DNA of 64,000 nt from Ignavibacteria bacterium (GTDB lineage: Bacteria > Bacteroidota > Ignavibacteria > UBA10030 > F1-140-MAGs086). Both the position numbers and the translations under genes were made by a program. The DNA is taken from the NCBI GenBank assembly GCA_016873775.1, contig VGWC01000002.1:4832-68831 (forward strand). Reading direction: 5' to 3'. Shown here one piece after another: positions 1,905-55,263 of the stretch. Position 1 is the stretch's first letter. Every line of letters starts with the position of its first letter. The notes under the pieces were generated by a model. That model did no database searches and had not been told where the DNA came from. It worked only from the letters and a program-made list of their open reading frames with translations.

Positions 1905-2849
1905 TTGAAATTCACTGTTGTCGGACATATTTGCAAAGATTTTATTCATCCCAAGAAAAACGGAAAAGCAGAAAATATTGAACCGTTATGGGGAGGAATT
2001 TTCTTTGCCGTAGCAACGCTTGCCAACATCACTTCTTCCGATGATAAAATCTTTCCTGTTTTTCCTATTGGAGAAGACGATTATGACGCAATCATTGAGC
2101 GATTAAAACATTACCCCAATGTTGATACCGACGGTATTTACAAAATCAAAGGAGAAACGAATTCCGTCCACTTACTGTATTCAACAGCACAAACTCGCAG
2201 TGAATGCTCCAAAAATATTGCTCCTTCTATTCCATTGAAAAAAATTCAACCGTATCTGAAAACGGATGGACTCTTGCTCAATATGGTTTCGGGTTTTGAT
2301 ATTTCGTTGGAAACATTATACAATATCCGACTTGCTATCCGCGAACAAGACGTTATTTCACACATTGATTTACACAGCCTAACGCTCGGTATCAATGATG
2401 ATTTTACACGCTTTCGAACACCGCTTATCGAATGGCGGCAATGGGCATTCATGATGAATACCGTACAGATGAATCAGGAAGAAGCAAAAAGTTTAACCGT
2501 AGAACGATACAGCGAAGAAATGCTCGCGAAACAATTGCTCTCCGTAGAAGTTCAACAGTGTATCATTACCAAAGGCGCAAAAGGTGTTTCGTTGTTTGTA
2601 GCAGAAGAACACAAACATATTTCACAACATACAATTCCTCCGGCTGAAAAAATAAAAACCATAGACGCAACCGGTTGCGGCGATGTTTTTTCTGCCGCGT
2701 TTTTATATCAATTTGTCAAATCGAAAAACCCGGTTGCATCCGCCGAATTCGCAAACCTCATTGCCGCAATCAATACGCAATACATCGGTTCTAGCGAAAT
2801 TGATACCATTACAAATGCACAATTAGAAACAGAACATACACCCTTATGA
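1905..2849 (+). CDS. PfkB-family carbohydrate/nucleoside kinase with a TTG start
   Basis: C-terminal DATGCGDVFSAAFLY is the PfkB DTxGAGD anion-hole motif, and the ribokinase-like fold length fits. The start is TTG at 1905. Confidence 0.7.
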   Translation: MKFTVVGHICKDFIHPKKNGKAENIEPLWGGIFFAVATLANITSSDDKIFPVFPIGEDDYDAIIERLKHYPNVDTDGIYKIKGETNSVHLLYSTAQTRSECSKNIAPSIPLKKIQPYLKTDGLLLNMVSGFDISLETLYNIRLAIREQDVISHIDLHSLTLGINDDFTRFRTPLIEWRQWAFMMNTVQMNQEEAKSLTVERYSEEMLAKQLLSVEVQQCIITKGAKGVSLFVAEEHKHISQHTIPPAEKIKTIDATGCGDVFSAAFLYQFVKSKNPVASAEFANLIAAINTQYIGSSEIDTITNAQLETEHTPL

Positions 2850-3583
2850 ACATCGCACTGATTGGCTACGGAAAAATGGGAAAAGAAATTGAATCGTTGT
2901 CAAAAGAACGCGGAACAGTTATCAAAAAAATTTTTACTCGAGAAAATAATAGCGCGGGAAAATCCCTGAACAAACAATCCTTAAAAGATATTGACCTCTG
3001 TTTCGAATTTTCTGCTCCCGACGAAGCGTATTACAATATTGAAGCGTTGATTGCGGCTAAAAAAAATATTGTGTGCGGAACAACAGGATGGTTTGACAAA
3101 ATTTCTTCCGTAAAAAAACTCGTAGAAGAACATCAGATCGGTTTTGTGTATTCTTCGAACTTCTCTCTGGGAATGAATATTTTTATTAGCACAGTTGAGC
3201 GCGCCGCTTCGCTTCTCAACCGTTTCAACGAATACGATGTAAGCATTCACGAAACACATCATGTTCGCAAACCGGATTCGCCTAGCGGAACAGCGTTTGC
3301 GCTCGCATCACTTCTTCTCCAAAATTTTCCACGCAAAACAGAAATCATCACGGAAACGGCTCACCAACAATTGCAACCGCATCAACTGCACGTTTCTTCA
3401 ACTCGCATCGGAAACGTCGTTGGACAACATACCGTCTTGTTTGATTCCGAAGTGGATTCGCTCGAATTAATTCACACAGCAAAAAATCGGCGCGGATTTG
3501 CATTAGGTGCAATTATCGCTGCCGAATGGCTGTATTACACTCAACAGAAAGGATTTTTTACGATGAAGGACGTTCTCGGATGA
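2846..3583 (+). CDS. dapB: 4-hydroxy-tetrahydrodipicolinate reductase
   Basis: MNIALIGYGKMGK is the Rossmann motif. HETHHVRKPDSPSGTAFALA is the DapB catalytic motif. The gene overlaps upstream pfkB and downstream dapA in ATGA fashion. Confidence 0.9.
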   Translation: MNIALIGYGKMGKEIESLSKERGTVIKKIFTRENNSAGKSLNKQSLKDIDLCFEFSAPDEAYYNIEALIAAKKNIVCGTTGWFDKISSVKKLVEEHQIGFVYSSNFSLGMNIFISTVERAASLLNRFNEYDVSIHETHHVRKPDSPSGTAFALASLLLQNFPRKTEIITETAHQQLQPHQLHVSSTRIGNVVGQHTVLFDSEVDSLELIHTAKNRRGFALGAIIAAEWLYYTQQKGFFTMKDVLG

Positions 3584-4479
3584 AACAGCAAACAATCTTA
3601 TTCCGTGGCACTGGAACCGCACTCATTACTCCATTCACGAAAAAAAATACCATTGACGAACGCGCACTTCGCCGACTTATTGATTACCAAATCGAAGGTG
3701 GCGTGGAAGCGATTCTCCCTATCGGAACAACAGGCGAAAGTGCAACTCTTACCGAAGTGGAAATGCGTAAAGTTGTCGAAATTGTTGTTGCTCACAATAA
3801 CAAACGAAAAATTGTTATTGCTGGTACCGGAACAAATTCGACAATGAAAACGCTTGCACTCTCCAAAAAAGCGCGCGACATCGGCGTTGATGGTTTATTG
3901 ATAGTCGGTCCCTACTACAACAAACCGACGCAAGAAGGATTTTATCAGCATTATGCGAATATTGCCGAACATATTGAACTTCCCATCATTATCTATAACG
4001 TGCCATCGCGAACAGGTTCCAACATCACCGCCGAAACTACGTTGAAACTTGCTGAAACGTTTCCCAACATCGTTGGCATAAAAGAAGCGTCGGGAAATTT
4101 CGAACAAATTATGGAAATCCTTCGCAATCGTCCGAAACAATTTGCATTGTATTCCGGTGATGATGCCGTAACGCTTCCGATGATTGCACTCGGAGGCGAT
4201 GGCGTTGTTTCCGTTATTGCCAATCAAGCCCCGAAAATGTTTTCCGAAATGGTACGTTTGTGTTTGCAAGAAAAATTCCGCTATGCCTCCGCTCTGCATT
4301 ATCAACTGCTTCCCTTAATGAATTTCAATTTTATTGAATCCAATCCTATCCCCGTAAAAACTTCTCTTGCAATGATGGGTCTTATTGAAGAGAATTTCCG
4401 TTTGCCGCTCATTCAACTGAGCAGTAGAAATCGTCCGAAACTGGAAGAAATACTGAAAAATTTGAAGTTGATTTCTTAA
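3580..4479 (+). CDS. dapA: 4-hydroxy-tetrahydrodipicolinate synthase
   Basis: GTTGESATLT, IIYNVPSRTG and KEASG are DapA motifs. The start is taken at ATG 3580, overlapping the dapB stop, rather than at the longer ORF start 3526. Confidence 0.85.
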   Translation: MKQQTILFRGTGTALITPFTKKNTIDERALRRLIDYQIEGGVEAILPIGTTGESATLTEVEMRKVVEIVVAHNNKRKIVIAGTGTNSTMKTLALSKKARDIGVDGLLIVGPYYNKPTQEGFYQHYANIAEHIELPIIIYNVPSRTGSNITAETTLKLAETFPNIVGIKEASGNFEQIMEILRNRPKQFALYSGDDAVTLPMIALGGDGVVSVIANQAPKMFSEMVRLCLQEKFRYASALHYQLLPLMNFNFIESNPIPVKTSLAMMGLIEENFRLPLIQLSSRNRPKLEEILKNLKLIS

Positions 4480-5944: not shown

Positions 5945-6100
5945 TATGGTGTAAAGATTTATTTTGAGAAAATAAAAGAAGAAAAATGTTGTTCGCAAAA
6001 ATTTCCGAAGAAGTATTTCTCCTACGCGAAACTCATTTCTTTGTTTCGGTGTTTTTTTACCGTTCTATTTTTAGGTATTTTTTCCCCGCTTTAAAACTGT

Positions 6101-7687
6101 ATGAAACAACGTGAAACCCTGACAGAACCCAAGGGAACTATCCTTTGGGTTGACGACGAAATCGAACTCCTTCGCCCGCATATTCTCTTCTTAGAAGATA
6201 AAGCGTACGACGTAGAAACGGCATCCAACGGCGATGATGCACTGGAACTTGTTCGCCATCAACTTTTTGACATTATTCTGCTTGACGAAATGATGCCTGG
6301 AATGGGCGGCTTAAAAGTGCTGGCAGAAATCAAATCTCTTCGTCCCGGAATTCCTGTTGTTATGGTTACAAAAAACGAAGCGGAAAGTTTGATGGAAGAA
6401 GCCATTGGGGACAAGATTTCAGATTACTTAACGAAGCCGGTTAATCCTTCGCAAGTGCTGTTGACAATTAAAAAAATCCTCGAAGGAAAGAAAATAACTT
6501 CCGAGCATTTGCAAAGCGATTACGTCCGCGAGTTTAACCGTATTTCTGCATCGTTATCTACGGGATTGCTCGCGAATGAATGGCTCGAACTTTATACAAA
6601 ACTTACTCGATGGGCAATAGATTTTGACGAACATCCGGAACTGGGATTGCGACAAACGCTGAATGACCAGTTTCGTGAAGCAAATATGGAGTTTGGAAAA
6701 TGTATTGATAGAAATTACACAAAGTGGGTTTCATCAACTCCTGATAAACGTCCAACGTTTTCGACGGACATCGTGGATAAATATCTCATTCCGGAACTGC
6801 AAAAAGATAAATCTGTTTTTTTTTTCGTAATAGATTGTATGCGTCTTGACCAATGGTTTGTGTTTGAGGAAATTCTTCGTGAATATTTTACTGTAAAACG
6901 CGATGCGTATTTTTCTATCCTACCAACGGCAACTCCTTATTCCCGCAACGCTATTTTCAGCGGCTCGTTTCCCGACGAAATTGAAAAACGGTATCCGGAA
7001 ATTTGGGCAAAATGGGAAGATGATGAAAACAGTTTGAATAAATTTGAGAAAGAAATGCTCGACAAATTACTGGAGCGAAGAAAGATTGCAATGAAGCCCG
7101 AACAAAAATACATCAAAATTCTCGATGGGGGTTACGGCAGAGGTATTGAACAAAATATTCTTTCGTACACTGCAAACCGTTTGACTTCAGTTGTTGTTAA
7201 TTTTGTTGATATGCTCGCACACGGACGTTCCGATTCTCCGCTGTTGAAGGAAATTGCCCCTGATGAATCGGCTTATCGCTTGCTTACAAAAACCTGGTTT
7301 CTCTATTCTTCGTTATTCGGAATGTTGAAATCGCTTGCGGAACAAAAAAATGTTTCCATCATCATTACCACCGACCACGGAAGCATTCGTTGTTTGCGAA
7401 GCGCAAAAGTCATTGGCGATAAAGAAGCCGCATCAAATCTGCGATATAAATACGGACGCAATTTAAAATGCGACGAGAAGAATTGCATCTTTATCAAAAA
7501 TCCAACGGATTACCGATTACCAAAACGCGGTGCCGCAATCAATTATATTATCGCAAAAGAAGATTATTACTTTGTGTACCCGACAGATTTTCATCATTAC
7601 GTTACACAGTATCGCGATACGTTTCAACACGGCGGCGTTTCGCTCGAAGAAATGATTCTTCCGATTGCAACATTAGAACCGAAGTAA
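6101..7687 (+). CDS. porX: PorX-type response regulator: CheY-like receiver plus PglZ (alkaline-phosphatase superfamily) domain
   Basis: The REC domain has ILWVDDE, the phospho-acceptor in IILLDEMMPG, and VMVTKN...LTKP. The C-terminal PglZ features are FFFVIDCMRLDQW and ITTDHGS. The length of 528 aa is typical for PorX. Confidence 0.75.
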   Translation: MKQRETLTEPKGTILWVDDEIELLRPHILFLEDKAYDVETASNGDDALELVRHQLFDIILLDEMMPGMGGLKVLAEIKSLRPGIPVVMVTKNEAESLMEEAIGDKISDYLTKPVNPSQVLLTIKKILEGKKITSEHLQSDYVREFNRISASLSTGLLANEWLELYTKLTRWAIDFDEHPELGLRQTLNDQFREANMEFGKCIDRNYTKWVSSTPDKRPTFSTDIVDKYLIPELQKDKSVFFFVIDCMRLDQWFVFEEILREYFTVKRDAYFSILPTATPYSRNAIFSGSFPDEIEKRYPEIWAKWEDDENSLNKFEKEMLDKLLERRKIAMKPEQKYIKILDGGYGRGIEQNILSYTANRLTSVVVNFVDMLAHGRSDSPLLKEIAPDESAYRLLTKTWFLYSSLFGMLKSLAEQKNVSIIITTDHGSIRCLRSAKVIGDKEAASNLRYKYGRNLKCDEKNCIFIKNPTDYRLPKRGAAINYIIAKEDYYFVYPTDFHHYVTQYRDTFQHGGVSLEEMILPIATLEPK

Positions 7688-15382: not shown

Positions 15383-16933
15383 TTATTCATTCGTCACAGA
15401 AATAAATTCTCTCTCAATCGTATGAACAATTTCCTTCAATGTTTCAATATCGAAAGAAATATCTCTATCCTTATCAACGAATGGAATGCCAAGCCCGTTA
15501 CGAATCATTTCGAAAAAGTTTTTCGTTCCTTCACCAAGTTGCGCTTTCGGATTTTGTCGCAAACGAAAATCAATCGCTTGACACGAGCAGAGAATTTCAA
15601 TCGCAATAATGTATTCAACATTGGAAACAACTTCTGCCGCGTGGCGTGCAGCAATTGTTCCCATCGAGTTGTGGTCTTCCTGATTCGCAGAAGTCGGAAT
15701 TGAATCACCGCTTGCGGGATGAATGAGAACTTTGTTTTCGGAAACGAGGGAAGCAGCAGTATATTGCGCAATCATCAAACCGGATTGAACGCCGCCATCA
15801 ACACACAGAAACGCAGGTAAACCGTTATTATGATTTTTGTCGAGAAGTTTTGCAATGCGACGTTCGGAAATATTTCCAAGTTCGGCAATTGCAAGTTTTA
15901 AGAAATCTAATGCAAGTGCGAGCGGTTGTCCGTGAAAATTTCCTGCGCTGACAACTTCATTTTCATCAGCAAAAATATGCGGATTATCGGTAACGGAATT
16001 AAGTTCGATTTCGATGATTGCTTGCACATACGAAAGCGCATCGAACGTTGCTCCGTGAACTTGAGGAATACATCGCAGCGAATACGAGTCTTGAATTTTA
16101 TCGTTCGTGTCGTCATCAACGCAATCGAGCAATGAACTTCCGCTTGTAAATTCCCGAATCATATTCGCAACAAATTGCTGTCCAACATACGGACGAAGTT
16201 TTTGCACATTTGACTGAAACGGAGAACTCTTTCCTTTCAATGCTTCAAGCGATAACGATGCAGCGACGTTTGCTAACTTAAAAAGATTTTTTGCATCGCC
16301 AAGTGCAAGCGTTCCGACTGCGAGCATTGCTTGTGTTCCATTCAACAACGCAAGCCCTTCTTTCGCTTGAAGTATGAGCGGCGGAATTTTCATTTGCTCC
16401 AACGCTTCTTTTCCCGTTACAACTTCGCCATATTCACCGATTGCAGCCCAACCTTCGCCAATCATTACCGAAGCGATATGCGAAAGCGGAGCCAAATCTC
16501 CACTAGAACCAACAGAACCTTTCGACGGGACAACGGGATGAACTTGTTTATTCAACATTGCGAGCAGCATTTCGACAACTTCAACACGTACACCGGAATA
16601 TCCCGCCGCAAGCGCATTCGCTCGAAGCAATATCATCGCGCGTACAACTTCATCGGGAAATGGTTCGCCAACTCCCGCGCAATGACTCAACACAAGATTC
16701 CGCTGTAATTCCTCAACTTGATTTTGTTGCAAACGAACATTTTGAAATGCGCCGAACCCCGTCGTAACTCCATACACGCTTTTATTTTGCTTCACTGCAT
16801 CTTCAATCCATTTTCGAGAAGCAAGCATTTTCTTTTTTGCAGATGGAGAAAGCGTTACTTCCTGAAAATTTCTTGCAACGGAGAAAATATTTTCGATGGT
16901 GAGTGATGTGCCGGTGAGTTCGAGTGGAGACAT
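15383..16933 (-). CDS. hutH: Histidine ammonia-lyase
   Basis: GSVGSSGDLAPLSH is the MIO-forming triad region, here Ser-Ser-Gly. LSHCAGVG carries the Ser-His selectivity pair of HALs. TGFG is at the N-terminus. Length is 516 aa. Confidence 0.85.
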   Translation of the reverse strand: MSPLELTGTSLTIENIFSVARNFQEVTLSPSAKKKMLASRKWIEDAVKQNKSVYGVTTGFGAFQNVRLQQNQVEELQRNLVLSHCAGVGEPFPDEVVRAMILLRANALAAGYSGVRVEVVEMLLAMLNKQVHPVVPSKGSVGSSGDLAPLSHIASVMIGEGWAAIGEYGEVVTGKEALEQMKIPPLILQAKEGLALLNGTQAMLAVGTLALGDAKNLFKLANVAASLSLEALKGKSSPFQSNVQKLRPYVGQQFVANMIREFTSGSSLLDCVDDDTNDKIQDSYSLRCIPQVHGATFDALSYVQAIIEIELNSVTDNPHIFADENEVVSAGNFHGQPLALALDFLKLAIAELGNISERRIAKLLDKNHNNGLPAFLCVDGGVQSGLMIAQYTAASLVSENKVLIHPASGDSIPTSANQEDHNSMGTIAARHAAEVVSNVEYIIAIEILCSCQAIDFRLRQNPKAQLGEGTKNFFEMIRNGLGIPFVDKDRDISFDIETLKEIVHTIEREFISVTNE

Positions 16934-17181: not shown

Positions 17182-18603
17182 TTATTTCAACAATGATTGA
17201 ATTGAAGAAAGAAGTTGAGGACGAGAAACAACAACTTGCGCTTGCTTTGTCGCTTTGATGTATTCTTCTTTGTTCGATGCATCAACATTTTTTCCAGCTC
17301 GTAAATCTTTTAACGTAACTTCGTTCTTTTCAAATTCGTTTGAGCCGATAATAACGGCAAGCGGAATTTGCATTTTGTTGGCGTATTGCAATTGCTTCCC
17401 CAATCCTTTTTCTTCTCCGAGATAAAGTTCCGTGTTAATACCGGCGCTGCGTAATTCACGGGTAAGTTGTTGGTAATCGAGCATTTTATCTTTTTCCATC
17501 ACTGTTACAAGCACATGCGCAGTGGAAGAAACAGTTTCAAGTCGCTCAAGTTTTTGTAACGCGGCAAGCAATCTATCAATTCCTGTTGATGCGCCAACTG
17601 CGGGAATATTTTTCCCGAGAAATCGCTGCACTAAATCGTCATAGCGTCCTCCTCCAAAAACAGAACCAAATTCCGGTGCATCGAGTAATATTGCTTCAAA
17701 CACAGGTCCGGTGTAATAATCTAATCCGCGAGCAAGAGAAAAATCAATCGTAATTTTTTCGTCGGAAAGTTTGAGCGCATCGAGAGAAGAACATATTTCT
17801 TTTAACTCGTTGATTCCTTCTTGTGCAGAAGATACATTGGTAAAGAGACGTTCAATGTTAACAAGCGATTCGTTTCTTGTCGCGTTTGGTAAATCAAGGA
17901 ACTGTTTTATTTTTGTAACGCTCTCATCATTTAGTCCAAGTCCACGAATGGTATCGCCCGACACATCAACTCTTCCTTCCGTTAATTCCAATGCAACTTC
18001 ATCGAAACTAATTTTATCGAGTTTATCAAGAATACGAAAAACATTTTTTCCTAATCCCTGAGGTACGTTCGCAAAATCTAAAAGTGCATTGAGTATTTTT
18101 CTATTGCTGAATCGCAGACGAAATCGCTCAATTCCCAAAGCAGAGAGAACATCGTACATCCCGCAAAGTATTTCAGTATCTGCCGCCATTGAAGAACTTC
18201 CAACTGTATCTAAATCAAATTGAATGAATTCTCGAAATCTTCCCGGGTCAGGTTTATCTGCTCTCCAAACTGGTGCAACATGATAGCGACGAAATGGTTT
18301 CGGTAATTCGGAATATTGAGATACTACGCGAGCGAGTGGGACAGTTAAATCGAATCGTAATGCAATGTCTTCTCCCTCTGGGATTTTTGAACGGAAAATA
18401 TTTTTAGATGTATCACCGTGCCCAACCAATGTTTCAACATATTCTAACGCCGGTGTATCAAGGGGAACAAATCCATATCGCTCAAAAACTGTTCGCACGG
18501 TTTCGATAATTTTTCTTCGTGCGATAACTGTTTCGGGAAGATAATCGCGCATTCCTTTAACAGTGCGAGGTTCGATTATTTTATTTTGGTTTTCGTTCGA
18601 CAT
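17182..18603 (-). CDS. hisS: Histidine--tRNA ligase
   Basis: VKGMRDYLPE is the class II aaRS motif, with GGRYD and the anticodon-binding C-terminus. The start is chosen at Met 18603 (MSNENQ...) because the further-upstream Mets lie in repeat DNA. Confidence 0.9.
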   Translation of the reverse strand: MSNENQNKIIEPRTVKGMRDYLPETVIARRKIIETVRTVFERYGFVPLDTPALEYVETLVGHGDTSKNIFRSKIPEGEDIALRFDLTVPLARVVSQYSELPKPFRRYHVAPVWRADKPDPGRFREFIQFDLDTVGSSSMAADTEILCGMYDVLSALGIERFRLRFSNRKILNALLDFANVPQGLGKNVFRILDKLDKISFDEVALELTEGRVDVSGDTIRGLGLNDESVTKIKQFLDLPNATRNESLVNIERLFTNVSSAQEGINELKEICSSLDALKLSDEKITIDFSLARGLDYYTGPVFEAILLDAPEFGSVFGGGRYDDLVQRFLGKNIPAVGASTGIDRLLAALQKLERLETVSSTAHVLVTVMEKDKMLDYQQLTRELRSAGINTELYLGEEKGLGKQLQYANKMQIPLAVIIGSNEFEKNEVTLKDLRAGKNVDASNKEEYIKATKQAQVVVSRPQLLSSIQSLLK

Positions 18604-18652
18604 AAAATAGAATTTTACATTTGACATTTTATATTTTAGATTGAAACAAAAT

Positions 18653-18674
18653 TGTAAAATGTTCAATATAAAAT
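18653..18674 (-). promoter_or_regulatory. 22-nt motif TGTAAAATGTTCAATATAAAAT in the hisS leader, with an exact second copy at 21963-21984
   Basis: Exact 22-mer duplicate seen directly. On the coding (minus) strand it reads ATTTTATATTGAACATTTTACA, followed 40-50 nt later by ATCTAAAAT.TAAAAT and then the ATG. Confidence 0.5.
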
Positions 18675-18730
18675 GTAAAAAAAAATGTCGGTTTCGAACT
18701 CACCTAGAGACGACAACTGACACTTGAAAG

Positions 18731-18804
18731 TACTGATGACTGGATTCGAACCGGTGACCCTCAGATCCACAATCTGATGCTCTAACCAACTGAGCTACAT
18801 CAGC
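18731..18804 (-). tRNA. tRNA-His (anticodon GTG), atypical: A73, no encoded G-1, G1-U72
   Basis: Manual cloverleaf. Acceptor GCTGATG/CATCAGT, D-arm GCTC-AGTTGGTTA-GAGC, anticodon stem TCAGA/TCTGA with loop TTGTGGA, T-arm ACCGG-TTCGAAT-CCAGT. No CCA is encoded. It lies 49 nt upstream of hisS on the same strand. Confidence 0.7.
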
Positions 18805-18841
18805 ATTTAAAAAAAATTTTCGGGAAAAATATAGCAAATCT

Positions 18842-20206: not shown

Positions 20207-21901
20207 TCACGCTTTTCCCCTCTTCCCTTGCTCTTCCACCGTAAAAATCCACGCGGCAAGTTTTCCTGGCTCAATTGAATTGAAATCGTTCCAATAACTT
20301 TTTCTACGGAAGTACCGAGAACTTGTTTCTTCTACAGAAATTTTTTCGGCTTCGGCAATTATTATGTTCATTCGCGATTTCCATTTTTCCATATTCGCTA
20401 CACGCAAATCAACCCAACCATCGCGCGACCACGTTGCAATTTTTTCGGAAGAAATTTTCAATTCATTCTCGCCAAGAAACGCAGGAATTTTTATTTCCTT
20501 TCCACGCAACAATGTTTTTCCATCGGGCATTAAAATAGGAATGCCGACAGAAATAATTTGCGAGCGTAGTGATTTGTTCTTTGCAATTTCATTCGATAAT
20601 TGTTTTGAAAGTATGTTCGCATTCGCTTTCATCACTGATCTCATTGACAAAAAACATTTCTTTAACAAATATGCTTCAAACAATAGTTTTGAAAGTCGCG
20701 GCGGACCAAGAATTTCAAACGCTATACTCTCAACGTTGTGTTTCTTTTCCAACTCTTCCAATTTTTGAATTGCACTGTTCCACATAAATCCCGCGCGATA
20801 CGTTGGGTCAAGCACAGCATTATCGAGCGCGTTCACAATATCGTGTCCTGTGTTTCCGCCTTTTATTTCCATCACAACAGCATCGGCTATTTCTTCCGGC
20901 GTAACATATTCCATTTGCCCCGCAGTGGAAATTGCTTCGAATTCATTTTTAGAAAACAATCCGTTCTCTCCCGTATCAATGAATACCGATTTCATCGGCT
21001 GATTCAATTCAATACCGATTTTTTCATCGCGAATTTTTATTATCTCTTTCAGTTGAAATCCATTCTTCGGCGGACAATCAACAAGTGAAATTACTTTACC
21101 GCGTTTTTTTATTTCTCCGTACGAAATTTTTTTCCACGCAATCGCCGCCGTCGGTTTTATCTCTTTGATAATCGGAGCATCAGGAGTTCTTCCCATCAAA
21201 AACAACAACATCGTATGCGCGCCGGCAACAGAAGATTTTGAAAGCAACACGCGCGACGGACGTTCTTCGCTATGCGTGTACGGGATGTTGAGCCCCATTC
21301 CTCCTGTTCCACTCGTTCCGATTTTCACATAAATTTTTGTTTGCAGAAGTTGCATCGAACGATATAATAATTGCACGTGGCGAATAAGTTGCGGCGTGTA
21401 TTGTGTGCAGAGCAATCGTTCGATTTTTTCTTTTACGTTTCCGTTTTGTTTATCCAACGCTTGCAACACATCGCGCGAACTTTGAAAAATATCTTGATAC
21501 GCAATTCCCGTTGCAGAGTTCACGCAATCAACAACAATCGACGGTTTGAATTTTTTCAGAAGTTGATACACCGATGATTGCTCCAGAACCGTTGAAGTCA
21601 TTTCATTGAGAATATCGTCAATCAACGTTCTGCGATATTTTTCGTTGGAAAGAATTTCTTCGCGCGGCAAATCTTTGAATGCATTGCGCACAAAAATATT
21701 TCCCCACCACGATTGAAACATTTCTTTTTTCAACTTCGGATATTCTTTGCGAAGTTGCGTAACTGCATCATCCGTTTCTTCTTTTTTCAGCGAAGTGATG
21801 ATAACTTTTTTCGGTTGCTCTTCAAGAATACGATGACAAACTGCGGAGCCAACCAATCCCCAGCCGCCAATTACTAATACTGTTTGACCTTTGATGTTCA
21901 T
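20207..21901 (-). CDS. Uncharacterised 564-aa protein with an N-terminal NAD(P)-binding Rossmann fold
   Basis: GQTVLVIGGWGLVGSAV is a GxxGxxG Rossmann motif. The remaining 480 aa carry no motif I recognise. Confidence 0.5.
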   Translation of the reverse strand: MNIKGQTVLVIGGWGLVGSAVCHRILEEQPKKVIITSLKKEETDDAVTQLRKEYPKLKKEMFQSWWGNIFVRNAFKDLPREEILSNEKYRRTLIDDILNEMTSTVLEQSSVYQLLKKFKPSIVVDCVNSATGIAYQDIFQSSRDVLQALDKQNGNVKEKIERLLCTQYTPQLIRHVQLLYRSMQLLQTKIYVKIGTSGTGGMGLNIPYTHSEERPSRVLLSKSSVAGAHTMLLFLMGRTPDAPIIKEIKPTAAIAWKKISYGEIKKRGKVISLVDCPPKNGFQLKEIIKIRDEKIGIELNQPMKSVFIDTGENGLFSKNEFEAISTAGQMEYVTPEEIADAVVMEIKGGNTGHDIVNALDNAVLDPTYRAGFMWNSAIQKLEELEKKHNVESIAFEILGPPRLSKLLFEAYLLKKCFLSMRSVMKANANILSKQLSNEIAKNKSLRSQIISVGIPILMPDGKTLLRGKEIKIPAFLGENELKISSEKIATWSRDGWVDLRVANMEKWKSRMNIIIAEAEKISVEETSSRYFRRKSYWNDFNSIEPGKLAAWIFTVEEQGKRGKA

Positions 21902-32447: not shown

Positions 32448-32520
32448 GGGGCTGTAGCTCAGTTGGGAGAGCGTTCGGTTCGCATCCGAAAGGTCGAGAG
32501 TTCGAATCTCTTCAGCTCCA
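32448..32520 (+). tRNA. tRNA-Ala (anticodon CGC)
   Basis: Manual cloverleaf GGGGCTG-TA-GCTC-AGTTGGGA-GAGC-G-TTCGG-TTCGCAT-CCGAA-AGGTC-GAGAG-TTCGAAT-CTCTT-CAGCTCC-A. It carries the G3:U70 alanine identity pair. No CCA is encoded. Confidence 0.85.
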
Positions 32521-45339: not shown

Positions 45340-45825
45340 TTATTCGTCTCCAAAAGGATGAGAATAGTATGAACCGGAAAGCAAAAACGGATTGTAGTAA
45401 TATGAGCCAAGTGGAAGTTGGCGATACTGAATTTGAAACAGTACATTATCCCACGGACGAAAATCAAGTTGCGCGCGATTCAAATAAATTCCGGAAACTG
45501 ATTGCTGTCCACGAAAACCTGTTGCATACGGAGAATACATCATACTAACATCGGCGCGCGCAGAAATTAAATCTGAAAAAATATATTGCATTGAGTTCGT
45601 GTATTGACTGATGGAAAGATTTTGCGCTCCGCTTGTTGCATAGTTAATCGAAAAATTATGATGCATTGAAAATTTATTCGGGTCAATCCAACCGAAAAGC
45701 GAATTCGATTGTATCGTTGAGAATCCAGTGTTTTGCGATGGAGTTTGCTGATTTCGAAATTGCGCAAAGGAATTTGTAAGTCCGAAAACAAGAACTACTG
45801 TGATTGCGAATGTAAATTTTTTCAT
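45340..45825 (-). CDS. Hypothetical secreted protein (161 aa)
   Basis: Signal peptide MKKFTFAITVVLVFGLTNSFAQ and a Tyr/Ser-rich, beta-rich composition. Confidence 0.45.
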   Translation of the reverse strand: MKKFTFAITVVLVFGLTNSFAQFRNQQTPSQNTGFSTIQSNSLFGWIDPNKFSMHHNFSINYATSGAQNLSISQYTNSMQYIFSDLISARADVSMMYSPYATGFRGQQSVSGIYLNRAQLDFRPWDNVLFQIQYRQLPLGSYYYNPFLLSGSYYSHPFGDE

Positions 45826-45873
45826 AGTGTTGGTGAATAATTTATGCCAATAATAAAATAGAGAATATCGAAT

Positions 45874-46071
45874 TTATAATCCAAACTTCCTTTTTACTTC
45901 TTCAAGTGTAGTTGTTGAAGCAAATCCCTCTTGCTGTTTTGCTAATCGTAAATCGCGAAGGTCTTCAATATCTTCTAAAGTTTCTTGCAATTTCTTAAAT
46001 TCTTGGTAAGGGAGAACAACAAATTCATTTTTCCCTTCTTTGCTAATTATTTGGGGATGGAGTTCAATCAT
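45874..46071 (-). CDS. Putative antitoxin (Phd/YefM-like C-terminal region), partner of the frameshifted RelE/ParE gene
   Basis: EFVVLPYQEFKKLQETLEDIEDLRDLRLAKQQ parallels the YefM/Phd strand-helix core. It lies 9 nt downstream of the toxin-like ORF on the same strand. Confidence 0.45.
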   Translation of the reverse strand: MIELHPQIISKEGKNEFVVLPYQEFKKLQETLEDIEDLRDLRLAKQQEGFASTTTLEEVKRKFGL

Positions 46072-46080
46072 ATTTTTGAT

Positions 46081-46339
46081 TTATTTATATGCTTCGTTTC
46101 TGTGCTTGATACGATAAATTACCAAACTCGTGCCTTCGATTTCAAATAATACTCTATAGTTTCCTACACGCAAACGATATTCCGGCGTAAAATTCGTCAA
46201 GTGTTTTACATCGCCGAAAAGATTTTCTTTCATCGCTTCTATTTTTTCTACTATGTGTTTCGCGTTCTTCGTTTGTGCGTTTTTCTAAATCTCGCAAAGA
46301 TTTTGGCTTGAAAACAATGTCATAACGCATTTCATTCAA
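46081..46339 (-). pseudogene. RelE/ParE-family toxin gene with a +1 frameshift at an A5 run
   Basis: The first frame gives MNEMRYDIVFKPKSLRDLEK. The +1 frame gives KNAKHIVEKIEAMKENLFGDVKHLTNFTPEYRLRVGNYRVLFEIEGTSLVIYRIKHRNEAYK, the RelE/ParE core. The 259-nt span equals 3n+1. The shift occurs at gaaaaac (plus-strand T5 at 46280-46284). Confidence 0.7.
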
Positions 46340-46399
46340 TCAACGGAAGTAATTTTTCGTGAAAATTATACTAAAATTTATTGAGTTTGCAAAGTTGCT

Positions 46400-46945
46400 C
46401 TACTTCATTTTATGCTGTTTGTGTTTTTTTGTCTCGGCTTTTGGAATATATCCACGTGCTTCGTCGTATTTCGCAACTTGCTCCGCAGTTAAAATTTTTT
46501 TCGTTGCAACATGCGCGATGAGATGAATTGAACGAAGTTCGCCGTGTAGTATTCCTATTTCTTCCGTATTTGATTTCAATGTTTGTTCGTCAATTGAATT
46601 ACTTGCAAACAAACTATCCAATTCTTTTTCCTTCATAATAATTTTATTTCCAGCGCGAACTGCATTTTCACTCATCGTTTTGAAAATCGTTTGGATTGTG
46701 TTTTTCTGTTCATCGGTAATTTTCAAAACGTCGGCAATGTCGAAAACGTGTTTTGGTCCGGGGTAATGATTGAGTTCCGCCGCTTTCGCTAATCCCATTC
46801 CGTTTCCTTCTTTCAGATTTTGAATGTCTTCATCGGAAAGCGATTTAATAGAACGTTTTTCTTCGCCTACATATTTTGAATGTTTATGCTGCGTAAAAAG
46901 AAATGAGTTGAAGAGGACGAAACTTAAAAGAAAAAATGTCTTCAT
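46400..46945 (-). CDS. Periplasmic Spy/CpxP/ZraP-like (LTxxQ-motif) protein
   Basis: Signal peptide, two LTxEQ motifs (LKITDEQK and LTAEQV), and a helical, charged composition. Confidence 0.5.
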   Translation of the reverse strand: MKTFFLLSFVLFNSFLFTQHKHSKYVGEEKRSIKSLSDEDIQNLKEGNGMGLAKAAELNHYPGPKHVFDIADVLKITDEQKNTIQTIFKTMSENAVRAGNKIIMKEKELDSLFASNSIDEQTLKSNTEEIGILHGELRSIHLIAHVATKKILTAEQVAKYDEARGYIPKAETKKHKQHKMK

Positions 46946-47012
46946 AGAAAATAGTTTTTTGAAATTGAATTACAGTTTTCTAACGAAGAAATGAATGGAA
47001 AAGTTTCAAAAA

Positions 47013-48101
47013 TTATTTTCCCGATTCTGCTTTCAATTCTGCTGTTCGCTTTCGTTCGGCAATCGTCAAAAACCAAACTGCGACGAGAATGAAACCGAGT
47101 GATACCCAATCTTGCAACTTCGGGAATTTAGCGCCGAATATAATCGCTGAAAGGAGTGTGGCGGTTGTCCCTGCAACAAGTGATGTAAGTCGATTTACTA
47201 ATCCCGCAAACGTTGCCGTTCTGCCTTTGAACATAAACAGGAACACAGAAAAGAATGCGACGAGACCGAATGCTGTTCCACTCATCACCCCAAAACTCCA
47301 TAACGAATTTGCAACATCAAACGAATTTTTAAATAATATGACTTGGGGAACATCCCATCCAAATGATTGCGAACCAAAATAAACTAAAAATGAAATTGAA
47401 AGAATAAAAATGAATGCAAATATTTGTTCGATTCCAAAAAATCCGTGATTGTCAAGTGGAACTCCTTTCGCTCGTGTATTTTTGAAATAGTTCATTATAT
47501 AAATGCGAATCAAATACGCAATTATGTAACTCGATAAAATACCGACAGCGGCTGTATTATTGAGAAAATCGAAATCACCCGCTTGCACAAAAACTAAATT
47601 TACTCCCGCCGCAAGCAATGCAAACACCACTGCAAAATTTTCTTCTTTGTACACTTTCTTTTTTAAAATTCCTTGCGCAATTTGCACGGCATCAACGCTT
47701 CTACTGATAACGATTACGCTTGCTCGCATAATCACCATCGCAACCATTACTGACATTCCTTCAAACGTGTACATCAATGTTGTTGTCGGAATAACAATCG
47801 CCGTCATCAAACCGGAAGGAAGAATGTATTTTATTTCTTCAGGAAGAGAAAGTCCCGCAACAGAAATCATATTATTCGATTTCAATCTATACCAACGCAT
47901 CGCAATTACAATGCCAAGCGCAGTAATCATTCCGCCAATCGTGTTATACACCATATATTCGATTTGGTTGAAATGGAGTGAACTTGCGATGTGTTGGTCG
48001 GTAAAAAGTTTTGCGCTGATTCCCGTAATGACGTAAAAAATAAAATAGCCAACACAGAGTTGAATCAATCGCGCAGTACTTCCTTCTTCAGTTTTCCACA
48101 T
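47013..48101 (-). CDS. Hypothetical polytopic membrane protein (about 10 TM)
   Basis: Hydrophobic segments throughout and no recognisable motif. Confidence 0.45.
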   Translation of the reverse strand: MWKTEEGSTARLIQLCVGYFIFYVITGISAKLFTDQHIASSLHFNQIEYMVYNTIGGMITALGIVIAMRWYRLKSNNMISVAGLSLPEEIKYILPSGLMTAIVIPTTTLMYTFEGMSVMVAMVIMRASVIVISRSVDAVQIAQGILKKKVYKEENFAVVFALLAAGVNLVFVQAGDFDFLNNTAAVGILSSYIIAYLIRIYIMNYFKNTRAKGVPLDNHGFFGIEQIFAFIFILSISFLVYFGSQSFGWDVPQVILFKNSFDVANSLWSFGVMSGTAFGLVAFFSVFLFMFKGRTATFAGLVNRLTSLVAGTTATLLSAIIFGAKFPKLQDWVSLGFILVAVWFLTIAERKRTAELKAESGK

Positions 48102-48123
48102 AATTTTTATGTTGTTATTAAAG

Positions 48124-48217
48124 AAAATAGAACACTGATGAAACGGATTTGACCGATGTACACTGATTTTTTTTATCAGTGAAAATCTGTTTCATCAGTG
48201 TCATCTGTGTTCTATTT
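48124..48217. repeat. Inverted-repeat (MITE-like) element with a nested hairpin
   Basis: The left arm is aaaatagaacactgatgaaacggattt. The right arm is aaatctgtttcatcagtgtcatctgtgttctattt, with an internal 9-nt duplication. The central sub-hairpin is cactgat-T8-atcagtg. Confidence 0.65.
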
Positions 48218-48241
48218 ATTTTTGACATTTGAATTTTGAAA

Positions 48242-48952
48242 TTACTTTTTCATCGTCCAAAGTTTTGTAGTCGCTCGTTCTAATTCTTGTGCAATCAAAT
48301 TTTTGTCAAGCGTTTTTTCCGGTTCGTTTTCAAACACAGCGTACGGAACGTTGAATCCTTTCACTTCGATGTAATCCGGATTTTTTGCCGCTATTTTTTC
48401 CCAATCATTTATCTTGTAATAAAAATCCATTTTCTCATCGGGAAGCGAATGATACAAAATGGAATCTTCCATTCCGGGTTTTGCGCGGCGACGATTTTTT
48501 CTCACCGATTCTTCATACGAAACTTTGATGTAGAGCAATGTCGCGCGTTTCAAAATATCTTCGTGTAAATAATTCAACGCTTCGTTGATTCCGTTTTCTC
48601 CCCCGCGCGCAAACTCAATGAGTGTCGTCATTTTCTCGTGATAGTTTGGATTACGCGCAAGTTTTTTTCTGTATTCCAAATTGATGCGCTCGATGTATAA
48701 ATTCCAAATAAACCCATCTTTAAACCAATATTTTTCATCGCTCCAAACACGTGGCTTTTTATGTCGAGAAAGAATATCGTCTATCTCGAATGTTTCCCAA
48801 ACATACACGAAATCATCAAGTTCTTCAAAATCGGAAATGTGAAATTGCTGCAAACGTTCATCTGTATTTGTGTGTTTGAGAAAATCAATGACTTCGGATT
48901 TTCCAGCGGCTGGCCTTCCGGTAATAATGAGAATAGGAAAGTTGTTTTGCAC
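48242..48952 (-). CDS. P-loop kinase, PPK2-like (polyphosphate kinase 2 family-like); assignment uncertain
   Basis: ILIITGRPAAGKS is Walker A. The region LLYIKVSYEESVRKNRRRAKP resembles the PPK2 region FLHISKEEQ..R. Confidence 0.35.
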   Translation of the reverse strand: MQNNFPILIITGRPAAGKSEVIDFLKHTNTDERLQQFHISDFEELDDFVYVWETFEIDDILSRHKKPRVWSDEKYWFKDGFIWNLYIERINLEYRKKLARNPNYHEKMTTLIEFARGGENGINEALNYLHEDILKRATLLYIKVSYEESVRKNRRRAKPGMEDSILYHSLPDEKMDFYYKINDWEKIAAKNPDYIEVKGFNVPYAVFENEPEKTLDKNLIAQELERATTKLWTMKK

Positions 48953-50484: not shown

Positions 50485-51171
50485 TTAAAATGAATTGATT
50501 GGAAATTCTGGAAGAAACACTTGATACATTCCCCATAATAAAAAACCTATCGTCAACGGAATGGCAAGATTATCATCGAGAAAATCGAACGAAAACAATT
50601 CGGCAATCGCTCCGCCAATTGCTGCAATAAATGCGTATGCGTATTCAACAAATGAATATCGTACTTTGGGAGTAAGAAGAATCACTGCGAACGCTGAAAT
50701 GACAAATGCAATACTTCCTTCCCAACTTTTTTTCCCACCGGCAATTGAATTAAATTTATGTCTTCCAAATTTTCTTCCGAACAACGCCGAAGCCGTATCG
50801 GAAATAATGAGAATAAAAAAACTTGTGATTGCAATGAGTTTCGGAAAAAGAGCAACACACAATACCGCGGAAATAAGTACGTACGTTGCTCCTGTTAAAT
50901 TTTTTTTCTTATCTGTCGTTTCGTGTTCACGAAGAATGGATTGAAAAATTATATTGTAAAATTGAGAGAATGATGTATGATATAATCGCGCAATATCAAT
51001 AGCCAATGAGATAACAGCAAGAATAATTAGCAAGAAAAGCGTAGTTTCTTTCGAAAACCAAAACCAATAACTTATCGGTATTGTCAGCGAAATTAAATGA
51101 ATGAACTTCCGAACAAGTTCTTTCTTAAAATCTATTTCGCCGGAAATTGAACGAACGTTTTGATGGCTCAT
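50485..51171 (-). CDS. CTP_transf_1-family (CdsA/dolichol-kinase-like) membrane protein lacking the CdsA C-terminal signature
   Basis: GRKFGRHKF...GGKKSWEGSIAF parallels the CdsA core, but there is no PGHGGxLDRxDS motif. Compare the genuine cdsA at 59665-60468. Confidence 0.45.
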   Translation of the reverse strand: MSHQNVRSISGEIDFKKELVRKFIHLISLTIPISYWFWFSKETTLFLLIILAVISLAIDIARLYHTSFSQFYNIIFQSILREHETTDKKKNLTGATYVLISAVLCVALFPKLIAITSFFILIISDTASALFGRKFGRHKFNSIAGGKKSWEGSIAFVISAFAVILLTPKVRYSFVEYAYAFIAAIGGAIAELFSFDFLDDNLAIPLTIGFLLWGMYQVFLPEFPINSF

Positions 51172-55189: not shown

Positions 55190-55263
55190 TAGCGGAGGAG
55201 GGAGTTGAACCCCCGACACACGGATTATGATTCCGTTGCTCTAACCAACTGAGCTACTCCGCC
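55190..55263 (-). tRNA. tRNA with CAT anticodon (elongator Met or lysidine-modified Ile2), directly upstream of tilS
   Basis: Manual cloverleaf GGCGGAG-TA-GCTC-AGTTGGTTA-GAGC-A-ACGGA-ATCATAA-TCCGT-GTGTC-GGGGG-TTCAACT-CCCTC-CTCCGCT-A. The anticodon stem lacks the initiator 3xGC feature. Confidence 0.75.

What the first reader, a model, noticed from the sequence alone, without database searches (positions are those of the whole stretch)
18731..18804. Atypical tRNA-His: A73 discriminator, no encoded G-1, G1-U72 pair
Bacterial tRNA-His normally has a genomically encoded G-1 paired to C73. Here the -1 nucleotide is T, the discriminator is A, and pair 1-72 is G-U. This resembles the minority non-canonical systems in which HisRS identity rules differ. 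The gene sits 49 nt upstream of hisS, which would let the two co-evolve. My cloverleaf also has one C-A mismatch in the T stem, so the fold needs confirmation.
Basis: partly seen in the sequence, partly recalled or inferred. Interest (0 to 1): 0.5.

Follow-up and report, generated by a model that had tools for sequence, protein, structure and literature searches.

The report
Histidine tRNA lacking G-1, with synthetase
This is a real histidine tRNA gene that lacks the usual extra 5' G and sits just upstream of a histidyl-tRNA synthetase built for such tRNAs; the system was known only from alpha-proteobacteria, but here it is in an Ignavibacteria-like bacterium and, often as a linked tRNA-enzyme pair, in genomes assigned to many other phyla.

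Summary
A high-scoring tRNA-His(GUG) lies on the minus strand at 18804->18731. It has T at -1, G1·U72, C2-G71, A73, a 9-nt D loop with U20a, G37, one C51·A63 mismatch and no encoded CCA. hisS follows on the same strand, 127 nt away rather than 49.

These are the published features of the 'delta-G-1' tRNAHis of Caulobacter. The adjacent HisRS shares three derived characters with the Sinorhizobium and Cereibacter enzymes:
- The motif-2-loop Gln is lost (KPDPGR instead of RPQKGR).
- The insertion domain carries an extra 12 residues.
- The anticodon-binding domain carries an extra insert of about 18 residues.

The HisRS groups with those enzymes in a tree.

Related HisRS genes occur in genomes assigned to Bacteroidota, Ignavibacteria, Acidobacteriota, Planctomycetota, Actinomycetota, Hydrogenedentota and other phyla. 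In 23 of 52 such loci a tRNA-His lies directly upstream, against 0 of 30 canonical loci. Across 27 such tRNAs G1·U72 is kept in 26 and G never occurs at -1.

The most likely reading is a G-1-independent histidylation pair, a new member of a known kind. What appears unreported is its spread across phyla and the physical tRNA-synthetase linkage. Not tested: the mature 5' end, charging, and the rest of the genome.

The parts
18731..18804 (-). tRNA-His(GUG) gene, 74 nt from G1 to A73. G1·U72, C2-G71, A73, 9-nt D loop (AGUUGGUUA, U20a), G37, C51·A63 mismatch, no encoded CCA.
   Evidence: Rfam 67.7 bits; ARAGORN; sequence. It is 74/74 identical in relative L081 although the flanks differ. The cloverleaf is supported by covariation in 18 related tRNAs.
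18805..18805 (-). Position -1 is U, not G. It would be removed by ordinary RNase P cleavage.
   Evidence: It is C in L081, L084 and L085, which carry the same or a near-identical tRNA. It is T also before the window's tRNA-Ala and tRNA-Met.
18677..18725 (-). Conserved hairpin followed by a run of nine U, directly 3' of the tRNA. Probably an intrinsic terminator or processing hairpin.
   Evidence: Fold energies are -13.6 kcal/mol (z -2.5) in the window, -19.9 in L081 and -21.9 in L084. The sequence is conserved in 4 relatives. The simple terminator scan did not call it, because the stem has mismatches and internal loops.
18651..18679 (-). Sigma-70-like promoter match TTTACA-17-TACAAT ahead of hisS. 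A weak, unverified candidate.
   Evidence: 10 of 12 matches, but 3 sites were found in the region against 2.1 expected by chance.
17182..18603 (-). hisS, histidyl-tRNA synthetase of 473 aa, of the delta-G-1 type.
   Evidence: TIGR00442 scores 387.7 bits against a cutoff of 286.75. It is 77-81% identical to HisRS of Ignavibacteriales-like genomes. The start is set by alignment with homologues. It lies in a clade with alpha-proteobacterial enzymes.
18238..18255 (-). Motif-2 loop K117-P-D-P-G-R122. Asp119 stands where canonical HisRS has the Gln that reads G-1:C73, and where Caulobacter-type enzymes have Gly.
   Evidence: literature.
17932..17976 (-). Segment G210-L224 (GRVDVSGDTIRGLGL). It contains the 12-residue insertion-domain insert that is shared with S. 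meliloti and C. sphaeroides HisRS and absent from canonical HisRS. It is predicted to form a beta-hairpin.
   Evidence: Alignment; model with strands 210-212 and 218-220 and pLDDT of about 85-93.
17239..17292 (-). Insert of about 18 residues (K438-A455) between the last two strands of the anticodon-binding domain. It is shared with alpha-proteobacterial delta-G-1 HisRS and absent from canonical HisRS.
   Evidence: Alignment; model with helix 445-453 between strands 428-433 and 456-460. Yuan et al. name such an insert as the likely anticodon reader.

Best explanation
The tRNA and the adjacent hisS form a G-1-independent ('delta-G-1 type') histidylation pair, as in Caulobacter and Sinorhizobium.

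Inferred steps:
- RNase P cuts at the normal +1 site, as for any tRNA with U-1/A73. This gives a 7-bp acceptor stem with no extra 5' nucleotide.
- CCA is added after transcription.
- HisRS selects the tRNA through the G1·U72 pair with A73 and through the GUG anticodon, not through G-1:C73.

Shown: the sequence features of both partners, their conservation and co-occurrence across many genomes, and homology with the alpha-proteobacterial enzymes.

Inferred by analogy with Caulobacter biochemistry: the mature 5' end and the recognition rules.
For: tRNA:
- All published delta-G-1 features are present: no G-1, A73, G1·U72, C-G as the next pair, 9-nt D loop with U20a, G37.
- It scores as well as the window's other tRNAs.
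- It is identical in L081, whose HisRS is 78% identical and whose flanks differ.

Enzyme:
- The motif-2 loop is KPDPGR, invariant in 20 homologues. S. meliloti and C. sphaeroides have KPGPGR and canonical enzymes have RPQ[KR]GR.
- Two inserts are shared only with the alpha-proteobacterial type.
- In a neighbour-joining tree the Gln-less HisRS form one clade (78/100) that contains Rhizomicrobium, S. meliloti and C. sphaeroides.

Co-variation across 27 tRNA-His genes beside this enzyme type:
- G1·U72 occurs in 26 and C2-G71 in 27.
- A73 occurs in 24 and G73 in 3.
- Position -1 is T in 19, C in 6, A in 2 and G in 0.
- Other acceptor pairs covary freely.

Biochemistry from the literature: Caulobacter HisRS charges G-1-less tRNA. 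U72C costs 91-fold, anticodon changes cost 91-1000-fold, and adding G-1 costs 5-fold.

No Thg1 was found in the window.
Against: - There is no experimental data for this organism.
- The motif-2 position is Asp, not the Gly118 considered important in Caulobacter.
- Identity to the alpha-proteobacterial enzymes (40-44%) is no higher than to canonical HisRS (37-43%). Membership therefore rests on indels, the loop and a neighbour-joining tree of moderate support.
- Only 64 kb of the genome was seen.
- The T stem has a C·A mismatch, and the single-sequence fold is unremarkable (z -1.2).
Confidence: 0.85

Rival explanations
1. Eukaryote-like route: the tRNA is made without G-1, and a Thg1-like protein encoded elsewhere adds G-1 opposite A73 before charging.
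For: A73 without an encoded G-1 is the eukaryotic arrangement. Thg1-like proteins exist in some bacteria (literature, abstracts). Most of the genome was not seen.
Against: None of the window ORFs scanned matches Thg1. The HisRS lacks the G-1:C73-reading Gln and carries the delta-G-1 inserts. The conserved G1·U72 matches the Caulobacter rule, not the eukaryotic G1-C72. G-1 lowers charging by Caulobacter HisRS.
Confidence: 0.05
2. U-1 pairs with A73 to give an 8-bp acceptor stem, RNase P cuts one position early, and U-1 is kept as a substitute identity nucleotide.
For: A -1:73 pair is possible in 22 of the 27 cassette tRNAs: U:A in 18, including the window, U·G in 3 and C:G in 1 (L013).
Against: L081 has the identical tRNA but C at -1. 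L084 and L085 also have C, and L042 and L044 have A. The window's tRNA-Ala and tRNA-Met also have U-1/A73, so U-1 is this genome's default leader base. From memory, U-1 is the general RNase P preference.
Confidence: 0.03
3. The gene is a spare or decaying copy. A canonical G-1:C73 tRNA-His with a canonical HisRS elsewhere does the work.
For: There is a C51·A63 mismatch, and the rest of the genome is unseen.
Against: The Rfam score equals that of the neighbouring tRNAs. The sequence is identical in a diverged relative. A·C or C·A at 51:63 recurs in 7 of 27 cassette tRNAs in several lineages, so it is tolerated. The only HisRS seen is the matching type, in a syntenic housekeeping context. Caulobacter-type HisRS charges a canonical tRNAHis 250-fold worse, so a canonical tRNA would need a second enzyme.
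Confidence: 0.07

Closest known systems
Delta-G-1 tRNAHis/HisRS pair of alpha-proteobacteria (Caulobacter crescentus, Sinorhizobium meliloti; Rhizobiales-Rhodobacterales-Caulobacterales clade and most SAR11)
   Same: The tRNA has no encoded G-1, A73, G1·U72, C-G as the next pair, a 9-nt D loop with U20a and G37. The HisRS has lost the motif-2-loop Gln and has inserts in the insertion domain and the anticodon-binding domain. Both enzymes fall in one clade.
   Different: The host is an Ignavibacteria-like member of the Bacteroidota-Chlorobiota group, not an alpha-proteobacterium. The motif-2 residue is Asp where Caulobacter has Gly. The tRNA gene lies directly upstream of hisS, whereas no tRNA lies within 1.5-2 kb of hisS in S. 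meliloti, C. sphaeroides or Rhizomicrobium. The enzymes are only 40-44% identical.
Canonical bacterial tRNAHis (E. coli, T. thermophilus): encoded G-1 paired with C73, kept by RNase P cleavage one position early
   Same: GUG anticodon, the same class IIa synthetase fold, and the same overall tRNA.
   Different: Here there is no G-1, A73 replaces C73, and G1·U72 replaces G1-C72. The HisRS loop is KPDPGR where the canonical one is RPQKGR. E. coli and T. thermophilus HisRS match the window enzyme at only about 100 bits, against 230-243 bits for the Bacteroidota/eukaryote-like type.
Eukaryotic cytoplasmic tRNAHis: A73, with G-1 added by Thg1
   Same: A73, no encoded G-1, and a HisRS of the 'eukaryote-like' sequence type (human HisRS scores 233 bits).
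   Different: Eukaryotes have G1-C72 and need Thg1. Here G1·U72 is conserved, no Thg1 is seen, and the HisRS has inserts that are absent from the human enzyme.
G-1-independent HisRS of protists (Acanthamoeba, Trypanosoma brucei)
   Same: Charging does not depend on G-1 and relies strongly on the anticodon.
   Different: The protist enzymes are indifferent to G-1, do not need G1·U72, and differ from the Caulobacter type in motif 2. They are an independent origin.
tRNA genes co-transcribed with a translation-factor gene (E. coli thrU-tyrU-glyT-thrT-tufB operon; from memory)
   Same: tRNA gene(s) lie directly 5' of a translation protein gene on one strand. Spacers of 4-41 nt in many related loci imply a single transcript.
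   Different: Here the protein is the tRNA's own synthetase. In the window itself a hairpin with a U-run and a promoter-like site separate the two genes.

Membership tests
Delta-G-1 type tRNAHis/HisRS system (Caulobacter type) | The tRNA-His gene does not encode G at -1. | tested here: met
   -1 is T. G occurs at -1 in 0 of 27 related cassette tRNAs.
Delta-G-1 type tRNAHis/HisRS system (Caulobacter type) | Discriminator A73 instead of C73. | tested here: met
   In relatives CCA follows directly after A73.
Delta-G-1 type tRNAHis/HisRS system (Caulobacter type) | G1·U72 first pair; U72 is the major acceptor-stem determinant. | tested here: met
   It is kept in 17 of 18 distinct aligned tRNAs while the neighbouring pairs covary.
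Delta-G-1 type tRNAHis/HisRS system (Caulobacter type) | Nine-nucleotide D loop with extra U20a. | tested here: met
   The D loop is AGUUGGUUA. It has 9 nt in 21 of 27 cassette tRNAs.
Delta-G-1 type tRNAHis/HisRS system (Caulobacter type) | The HisRS motif-2 loop lacks the Gln that reads G-1:C73 (Gly in Caulobacter). | tested here: met
   The loop is KPDPGR: the Gln is absent but the residue is Asp, not Gly.
Delta-G-1 type tRNAHis/HisRS system (Caulobacter type) | HisRS inserts in the insertion domain and in the anticodon-binding domain. | tested here: met
   Both inserts align with those of S. meliloti and C. sphaeroides and are absent from 4 canonical HisRS.
Delta-G-1 type tRNAHis/HisRS system (Caulobacter type) | The HisRS groups phylogenetically with alpha-proteobacterial delta-G-1 enzymes. 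| tested here: met
   The neighbour-joining clade has 78/100 support on columns that exclude the inserts. No maximum-likelihood tree was made.
Delta-G-1 type tRNAHis/HisRS system (Caulobacter type) | The mature tRNAHis carries no -1 nucleotide. | not testable with these tools
   This needs 5'-end mapping or tRNA-seq.
Delta-G-1 type tRNAHis/HisRS system (Caulobacter type) | HisRS charges G-1-less tRNA and depends on U72 and the anticodon. | not testable with these tools
   This needs in vitro aminoacylation.
Delta-G-1 type tRNAHis/HisRS system (Caulobacter type) | The genome has no canonical tRNAHis/HisRS pair and no Thg1. | tested here: inconclusive
   The 64-kb window has one tRNA-His, one hisS and no Thg1 among the ORFs scanned. 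The rest of the genome was not available.
Canonical bacterial tRNAHis | Encoded G-1 paired with C73 (8-bp acceptor stem). | tested here: not met
   The pair here is U-1/A73.
Thg1-dependent (eukaryote-like) tRNAHis | A Thg1 or Thg1-like guanylyltransferase gene is present. | tested here: inconclusive
   None in the window. The whole genome was not seen.

The most novel reading that the evidence does not exclude
The G-1-independent HisRS/tRNAHis pair is not an alpha-proteobacterial invention. It is a widespread bacterial lineage that often travels as a two-gene tRNA-synthetase cassette, that is, a self-contained pair orthogonal to the canonical one.

On this reading the cassette has moved between phyla, and alpha-proteobacteria acquired their pair from such a donor and later separated the two genes.

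The broad distribution and the linkage are shown here, subject to the taxonomic labels of the metagenome-assembled genomes. The direction and mechanism of transfer are inferred.
Probability: 0.45. Interest if true: 0.65.

Novelty: new member of a known kind. Interest (0 to 1): 0.45.

Why it matters
G-1 on tRNAHis is treated as one of the most universal tRNA identity marks. Every paper I could read, up to 2023, names a single alpha-proteobacterial lineage as the only bacterial exception ('likely arose only once'; 'the only exceptions identified to date').

This window and the 50-odd related loci indicate that the alternative rule is used in Ignavibacteria-like bacteria and in genomes assigned to at least eight other phyla. 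The tRNA and its synthetase are often physically linked.
- This gives a concrete vehicle for co-transfer of a tRNA identity rule.
- It offers bacterial donors for the alpha-proteobacterial HisRS, whose origin has been disputed between a eukaryotic transfer and convergence.
- It warns annotation pipelines and tRNA-based phylogenetic classifiers not to treat 'A73, no G-1' as alpha-proteobacterial.
- It widens the pool of natural HisRS/tRNAHis pairs that are orthogonal to the E. coli pair and could be used for genetic-code engineering.

Tried and rejected
- Alternative boundaries giving G-1/C73: none exist. ARAGORN and Rfam agree on the 5' end.
- Pseudogene: rejected on score, identity with L081 and family covariation.
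- Conserved U-1:A73 pair: rejected because close relatives have C-1 and the window's other tRNAs also have U-1.
- Thg1 in the window: none found.
- Mobile-element context: rejected. The neighbourhood is housekeeping and syntenic in L081.
- Phage carriage: no relative in IMG/VR, and only HisRS below 32% identity in GenBank phages.
- BLAST of the tRNA against plasmid records gave only generic tRNA similarity and no alpha-proteobacterial tRNA-His.
- The Wang 2007 and Ardell & Andersson 2006 papers could not be read. What I say about them comes from citing papers or from memory.
- A search with the Rhizomicrobium HisRS returned no cultured Caulobacter sequence. S. meliloti and C. sphaeroides hisS were taken from PLSDB records instead.
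- The simple terminator scan missed the post-tRNA hairpin. Folding and conservation support it.
- RNAalifold mispredicted the D arm, so the standard cloverleaf was tested explicitly.
- The AlphaFold model is only moderate (pLDDT 76). It was used only for the secondary structure of the inserts.
- The metagenome-contig scan was not used.

Full report
**1. The observation**

The window holds three tRNA genes. One is tRNA-His(GUG) on the minus strand. Rfam places it at 18804->18731 with 67.7 bits and E=1.4e-12, the same level as the window's tRNA-Ala (68.1) and tRNA-Met (67.2).

The minus strand reads AAAU|GCUGAUG-UA-GCUC-AGUUGGUUA-GAGC-A-UCAGA-UUGUGGA-UCUGA-GGGUC-ACCGG-UUCGAAU-CCAGU-CAUCAGU-A|CUUUCA. 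This gives:
- U at -1
- G1·U72 and C2-G71
- A73
- a 9-nt D loop with U20a
- G37
- one C51·A63 mismatch
- no encoded CCA

ARAGORN's extra base is only the C after A73. It adds the same base for the other two tRNAs.

hisS lies downstream on the same strand. Alignment with homologues puts its start at ATG 18603, so the spacer is 127 nt, not 49.

**2. Is the tRNA functional?**

The tRNA is 74/74 identical in L081. That relative's HisRS is only 78% identical and its flanks differ.

I aligned 18 distinct 74-nt tRNA-His sequences found next to related hisS genes and tested the standard cloverleaf on them:
- 98.4% of cells form standard pairs.
- 13 of 21 pairs show compensatory changes.
- No shuffle (0 of 500) and no slid register reaches these values.

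The 51:63 position is A·C or C·A in 7 of 27 such tRNAs from several lineages. The mismatch is therefore tolerated and is not a sign of decay.

**3. The enzyme**

The ORF is a bona fide hisS: TIGR00442 scores 387.7 bits against a cutoff of 286.75. Among solved structures it is closest to 6nhi, human cytoplasmic HisRS and chain 3net (228-243 bits). It is far from the E. coli, T. thermophilus and S. aureus enzymes (about 92-103 bits).

Its motif-2 loop is WRADKPDPGRFREF. 'DKPDPGRFREF' is invariant in 20 homologues of 60-81% identity.

I took HisRS of S. meliloti and Cereibacter sphaeroides from PLSDB records. Both read NEKPGPGRFRQF. Canonical enzymes in the same data set read RPQ[KR]GR.

The window enzyme shares three derived characters with the alpha-proteobacterial enzymes that four canonical HisRS lack:
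- The motif-2 Gln is lost.
- The insertion domain has a 12-residue insert (GRxDxSGDxxxGxGL).
- The anticodon-binding domain has an insert of about 18-24 residues between its last two strands.

An AlphaFold model (pLDDT 76) predicts the first insert as a confident beta-hairpin and the second as a helix-containing excursion.

**4. What the literature says about this type**

Yuan et al. 2011 (PMC3064791) describe the alpha-proteobacterial 'delta-G-1' tRNAHis as having A73, G1-U72, a conserved C-G acceptor pair (printed as 'C3-G71'; the window has C2-G71) and a 9-nt D loop with U20a. They show the following for Caulobacter HisRS:
- It charges this tRNA fully.
- U72C costs 91-fold and anticodon changes cost 91-1000-fold.
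- Adding G-1 costs 5-fold.
- It charges E. coli tRNAHis 250-fold worse.
- An insert in the anticodon-binding domain is named as the likely anticodon reader.

Tian et al. 2015 add that the Gly-Gly dipeptide that makes room for G-1 in T. thermophilus is replaced by Asp-Asp in Caulobacter. The aligned position is E-G in the window and mostly E-E in its clade. This is a loop with indels, so I treat the comparison as suggestive only.

**5. Relatives elsewhere**

A scan of one genome per GTDB species with the HisRS alignment returned 80 loci. Gln-less loops of the form KP[D/G/A/E]xGR occur in genomes labelled:
- Bacteroidota and Ignavibacteria
- Kryptoniota and Zixibacteria
- Acidobacteriota (Blastocatellia, Bryobacterales)
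- Planctomycetota and Hydrogenedentota
- Actinomycetota (Acidimicrobiales)
- Methylomirabilota-like and Bipolaricaulota
- the alpha-proteobacterium Rhizomicrobium

. Several of these loci lie on contigs of 0.2-4.5 Mb.

In a neighbour-joining tree built on columns that exclude the inserts, these enzymes form one clade with 78/100 support. An 'EKPGPGR' subclade has 100/100 support. It joins S. meliloti, C. sphaeroides and Rhizomicrobium with sequences from Planctomycetota, Actinomycetota, Blastocatellia and Bipolaricaulota. The window enzyme sits in the 'DKPDPGR' subclade.

Planctomycetota and Acidobacteriota each appear in more than one subclade. This suggests horizontal transfer, with the caveats of genome-bin taxonomy and a distance tree.

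**6. The linkage**

A tRNA-His lies within 350 nt upstream on the same strand in 23 of 52 loci of this HisRS type. It does so in 0 of 30 loci with a canonical loop (Fisher p=4.5e-6). The loci were chosen by protein similarity alone.

Across the 27 tRNA-His genes found in such loci:

| Feature | Count |
|---|---|
| G1·U72 | 26 (U1-A72 in one) |
| C2-G71 | 27 |
| A73 / G73 | 24 / 3 |
| -1 = T / C / A / G | 19 / 6 / 2 / 0 |
| 9-nt D loop | 21 |

Spacers are often only 4-41 nt, which implies co-transcription. In the window's own clade the spacer is longer. It holds a conserved hairpin with a U-run and a promoter-like site of no statistical weight.

No tRNA lies within 1.5-2 kb of hisS in S. meliloti, C. 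sphaeroides or Rhizomicrobium.

**7. Rival readings**

- Thg1 adds G-1 after transcription. No Thg1 domain was found in the 50 window ORFs scanned with Pfam, nor in those annotated by NCBIfam or by synteny. The enzyme signature and G1·U72 also argue against this reading. The whole genome is unseen, so I give it 0.05.
- U-1 is retained through a U-1:A73 pair. Close relatives with the same tRNA have C-1, and the window's tRNA-Ala and tRNA-Met also have U-1/A73. I give it 0.03.
- The gene is a spare copy beside a canonical pair. Conservation, the matching enzyme and the housekeeping, syntenic context argue against it, but it cannot be excluded without the genome. I give it 0.07.

**8. Novelty and verdict**

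The kind of system is known and biochemically characterised in alpha-proteobacteria. This locus is a new member, in an Ignavibacteria-like bacterium:
- The best named HisRS homologue comes from an Ignavibacteriales genome.
- A type IX secretion sorting domain in the window is a weaker hint; from memory, that domain marks the Bacteroidota group.

It differs in a minor way: Asp stands for Gly in the loop.

Papers I could search up to 2026 ascribe the trait only to alpha-proteobacteria and their phages. The phyletic breadth and the tRNA-hisS cassette therefore appear unreported. I cannot exclude a report in journals outside the library.

Interest is moderate (0.45). The local finding is explained by a known mechanism, but it revises a textbook-level statement about where that mechanism occurs and suggests how it spreads.

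Noticed in passing
L001-L049 (for example L019 654-731, L036 5916-6001, L044 5875-5977): tRNA-His lies directly 5' of hisS, with spacers of only 4-41 nt, in many loci from different phyla. This implies one transcript, in which tRNA 3' processing would create the hisS mRNA 5' end. A few loci have the tRNA divergent (L004), 2.5 kb upstream (L006) or 2 kb downstream (L030, L034).
   Followed up: partly
window 18752/18742 (tRNA positions 51 and 63); also L081, L084, L085, L001, L016, L020: A C·A or A·C mismatch at T-stem pair 51:63 recurs in 7 of 27 cassette tRNA-His genes in several lineages, and in both orientations. It may be a tolerated A+·C wobble or a lineage-specific feature. No explanation yet.
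   Followed up: partly
window 15383-16933 (-), and L081 7529-9082, L084 7407-8945: hisS is followed on the same strand by hutH (histidine ammonia-lyase). In L084 the two ORFs overlap by 4 nt. The result is a tRNA-His / hisS / histidine-degradation cluster.
   Followed up: no
L081 5682-5740: A truncated copy of the tRNA-His 5' half (GCTGATGTAGCTCAGTTGGTTAGAG) lies about 55 nt upstream of the intact tRNA. It is followed by an unrelated hairpin (TCCCGATTGCAATCGGGA). It is absent from the window.
   Followed up: no
L025 5609-5765 and hisS from 5995: A genome labelled Gammaproteobacteria has two tandem tRNA-His genes with G1-C72 and C73 but no G at -1 (C and A). They lie upstream of a HisRS of the same clade whose loop is DEPSPGR. 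This could be a third acceptor-end variant.
   Followed up: no
L013 5919-5992; L030 and L034 9395-9469; L047 1380-1453: Variants within the cassette family: G73 instead of A73 (L013, L030, L034), and U1-A72 instead of G1·U72 (L047, HisRS loop DKPEEGR).
   Followed up: no
L046 (Thermoplasmata archaeon genome bin) 2360-3907 and 6070-6142: An archaeal contig carries a HisRS that nests inside the bacterial EKPGPGR subclade. Its loop is altered (…EASLEPGRFQEF). A tRNA-His with C-1, G1-C72 and A73 lies 2 kb downstream.
   Followed up: no
window 32448-32520 (+) and 55190-55263 (-): tRNA-Ala(CGC) and tRNA-Met(CAU) both have T at -1, A73 and no encoded CCA, like tRNA-His. This genome therefore relies on a CCA-adding enzyme.
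   Followed up: yes
window 18686-18703 (-): The 3' arm of the post-tRNA hairpin (GAGTTCGAAACCGACA) resembles the tRNA's own T-arm and acceptor 3' segment (GGTTCGAATCCAGTCA). This may be chance or a remnant of a partial tRNA duplication.
   Followed up: no
window 20207-21901 (-), 45340-48952 (-), 50485-51171 (-): Several ORFs have no Pfam match at E<=1e-5. They include a conserved 564-aa protein that is syntenic in L081, where its homologue is listed with PF27054.
   Followed up: no
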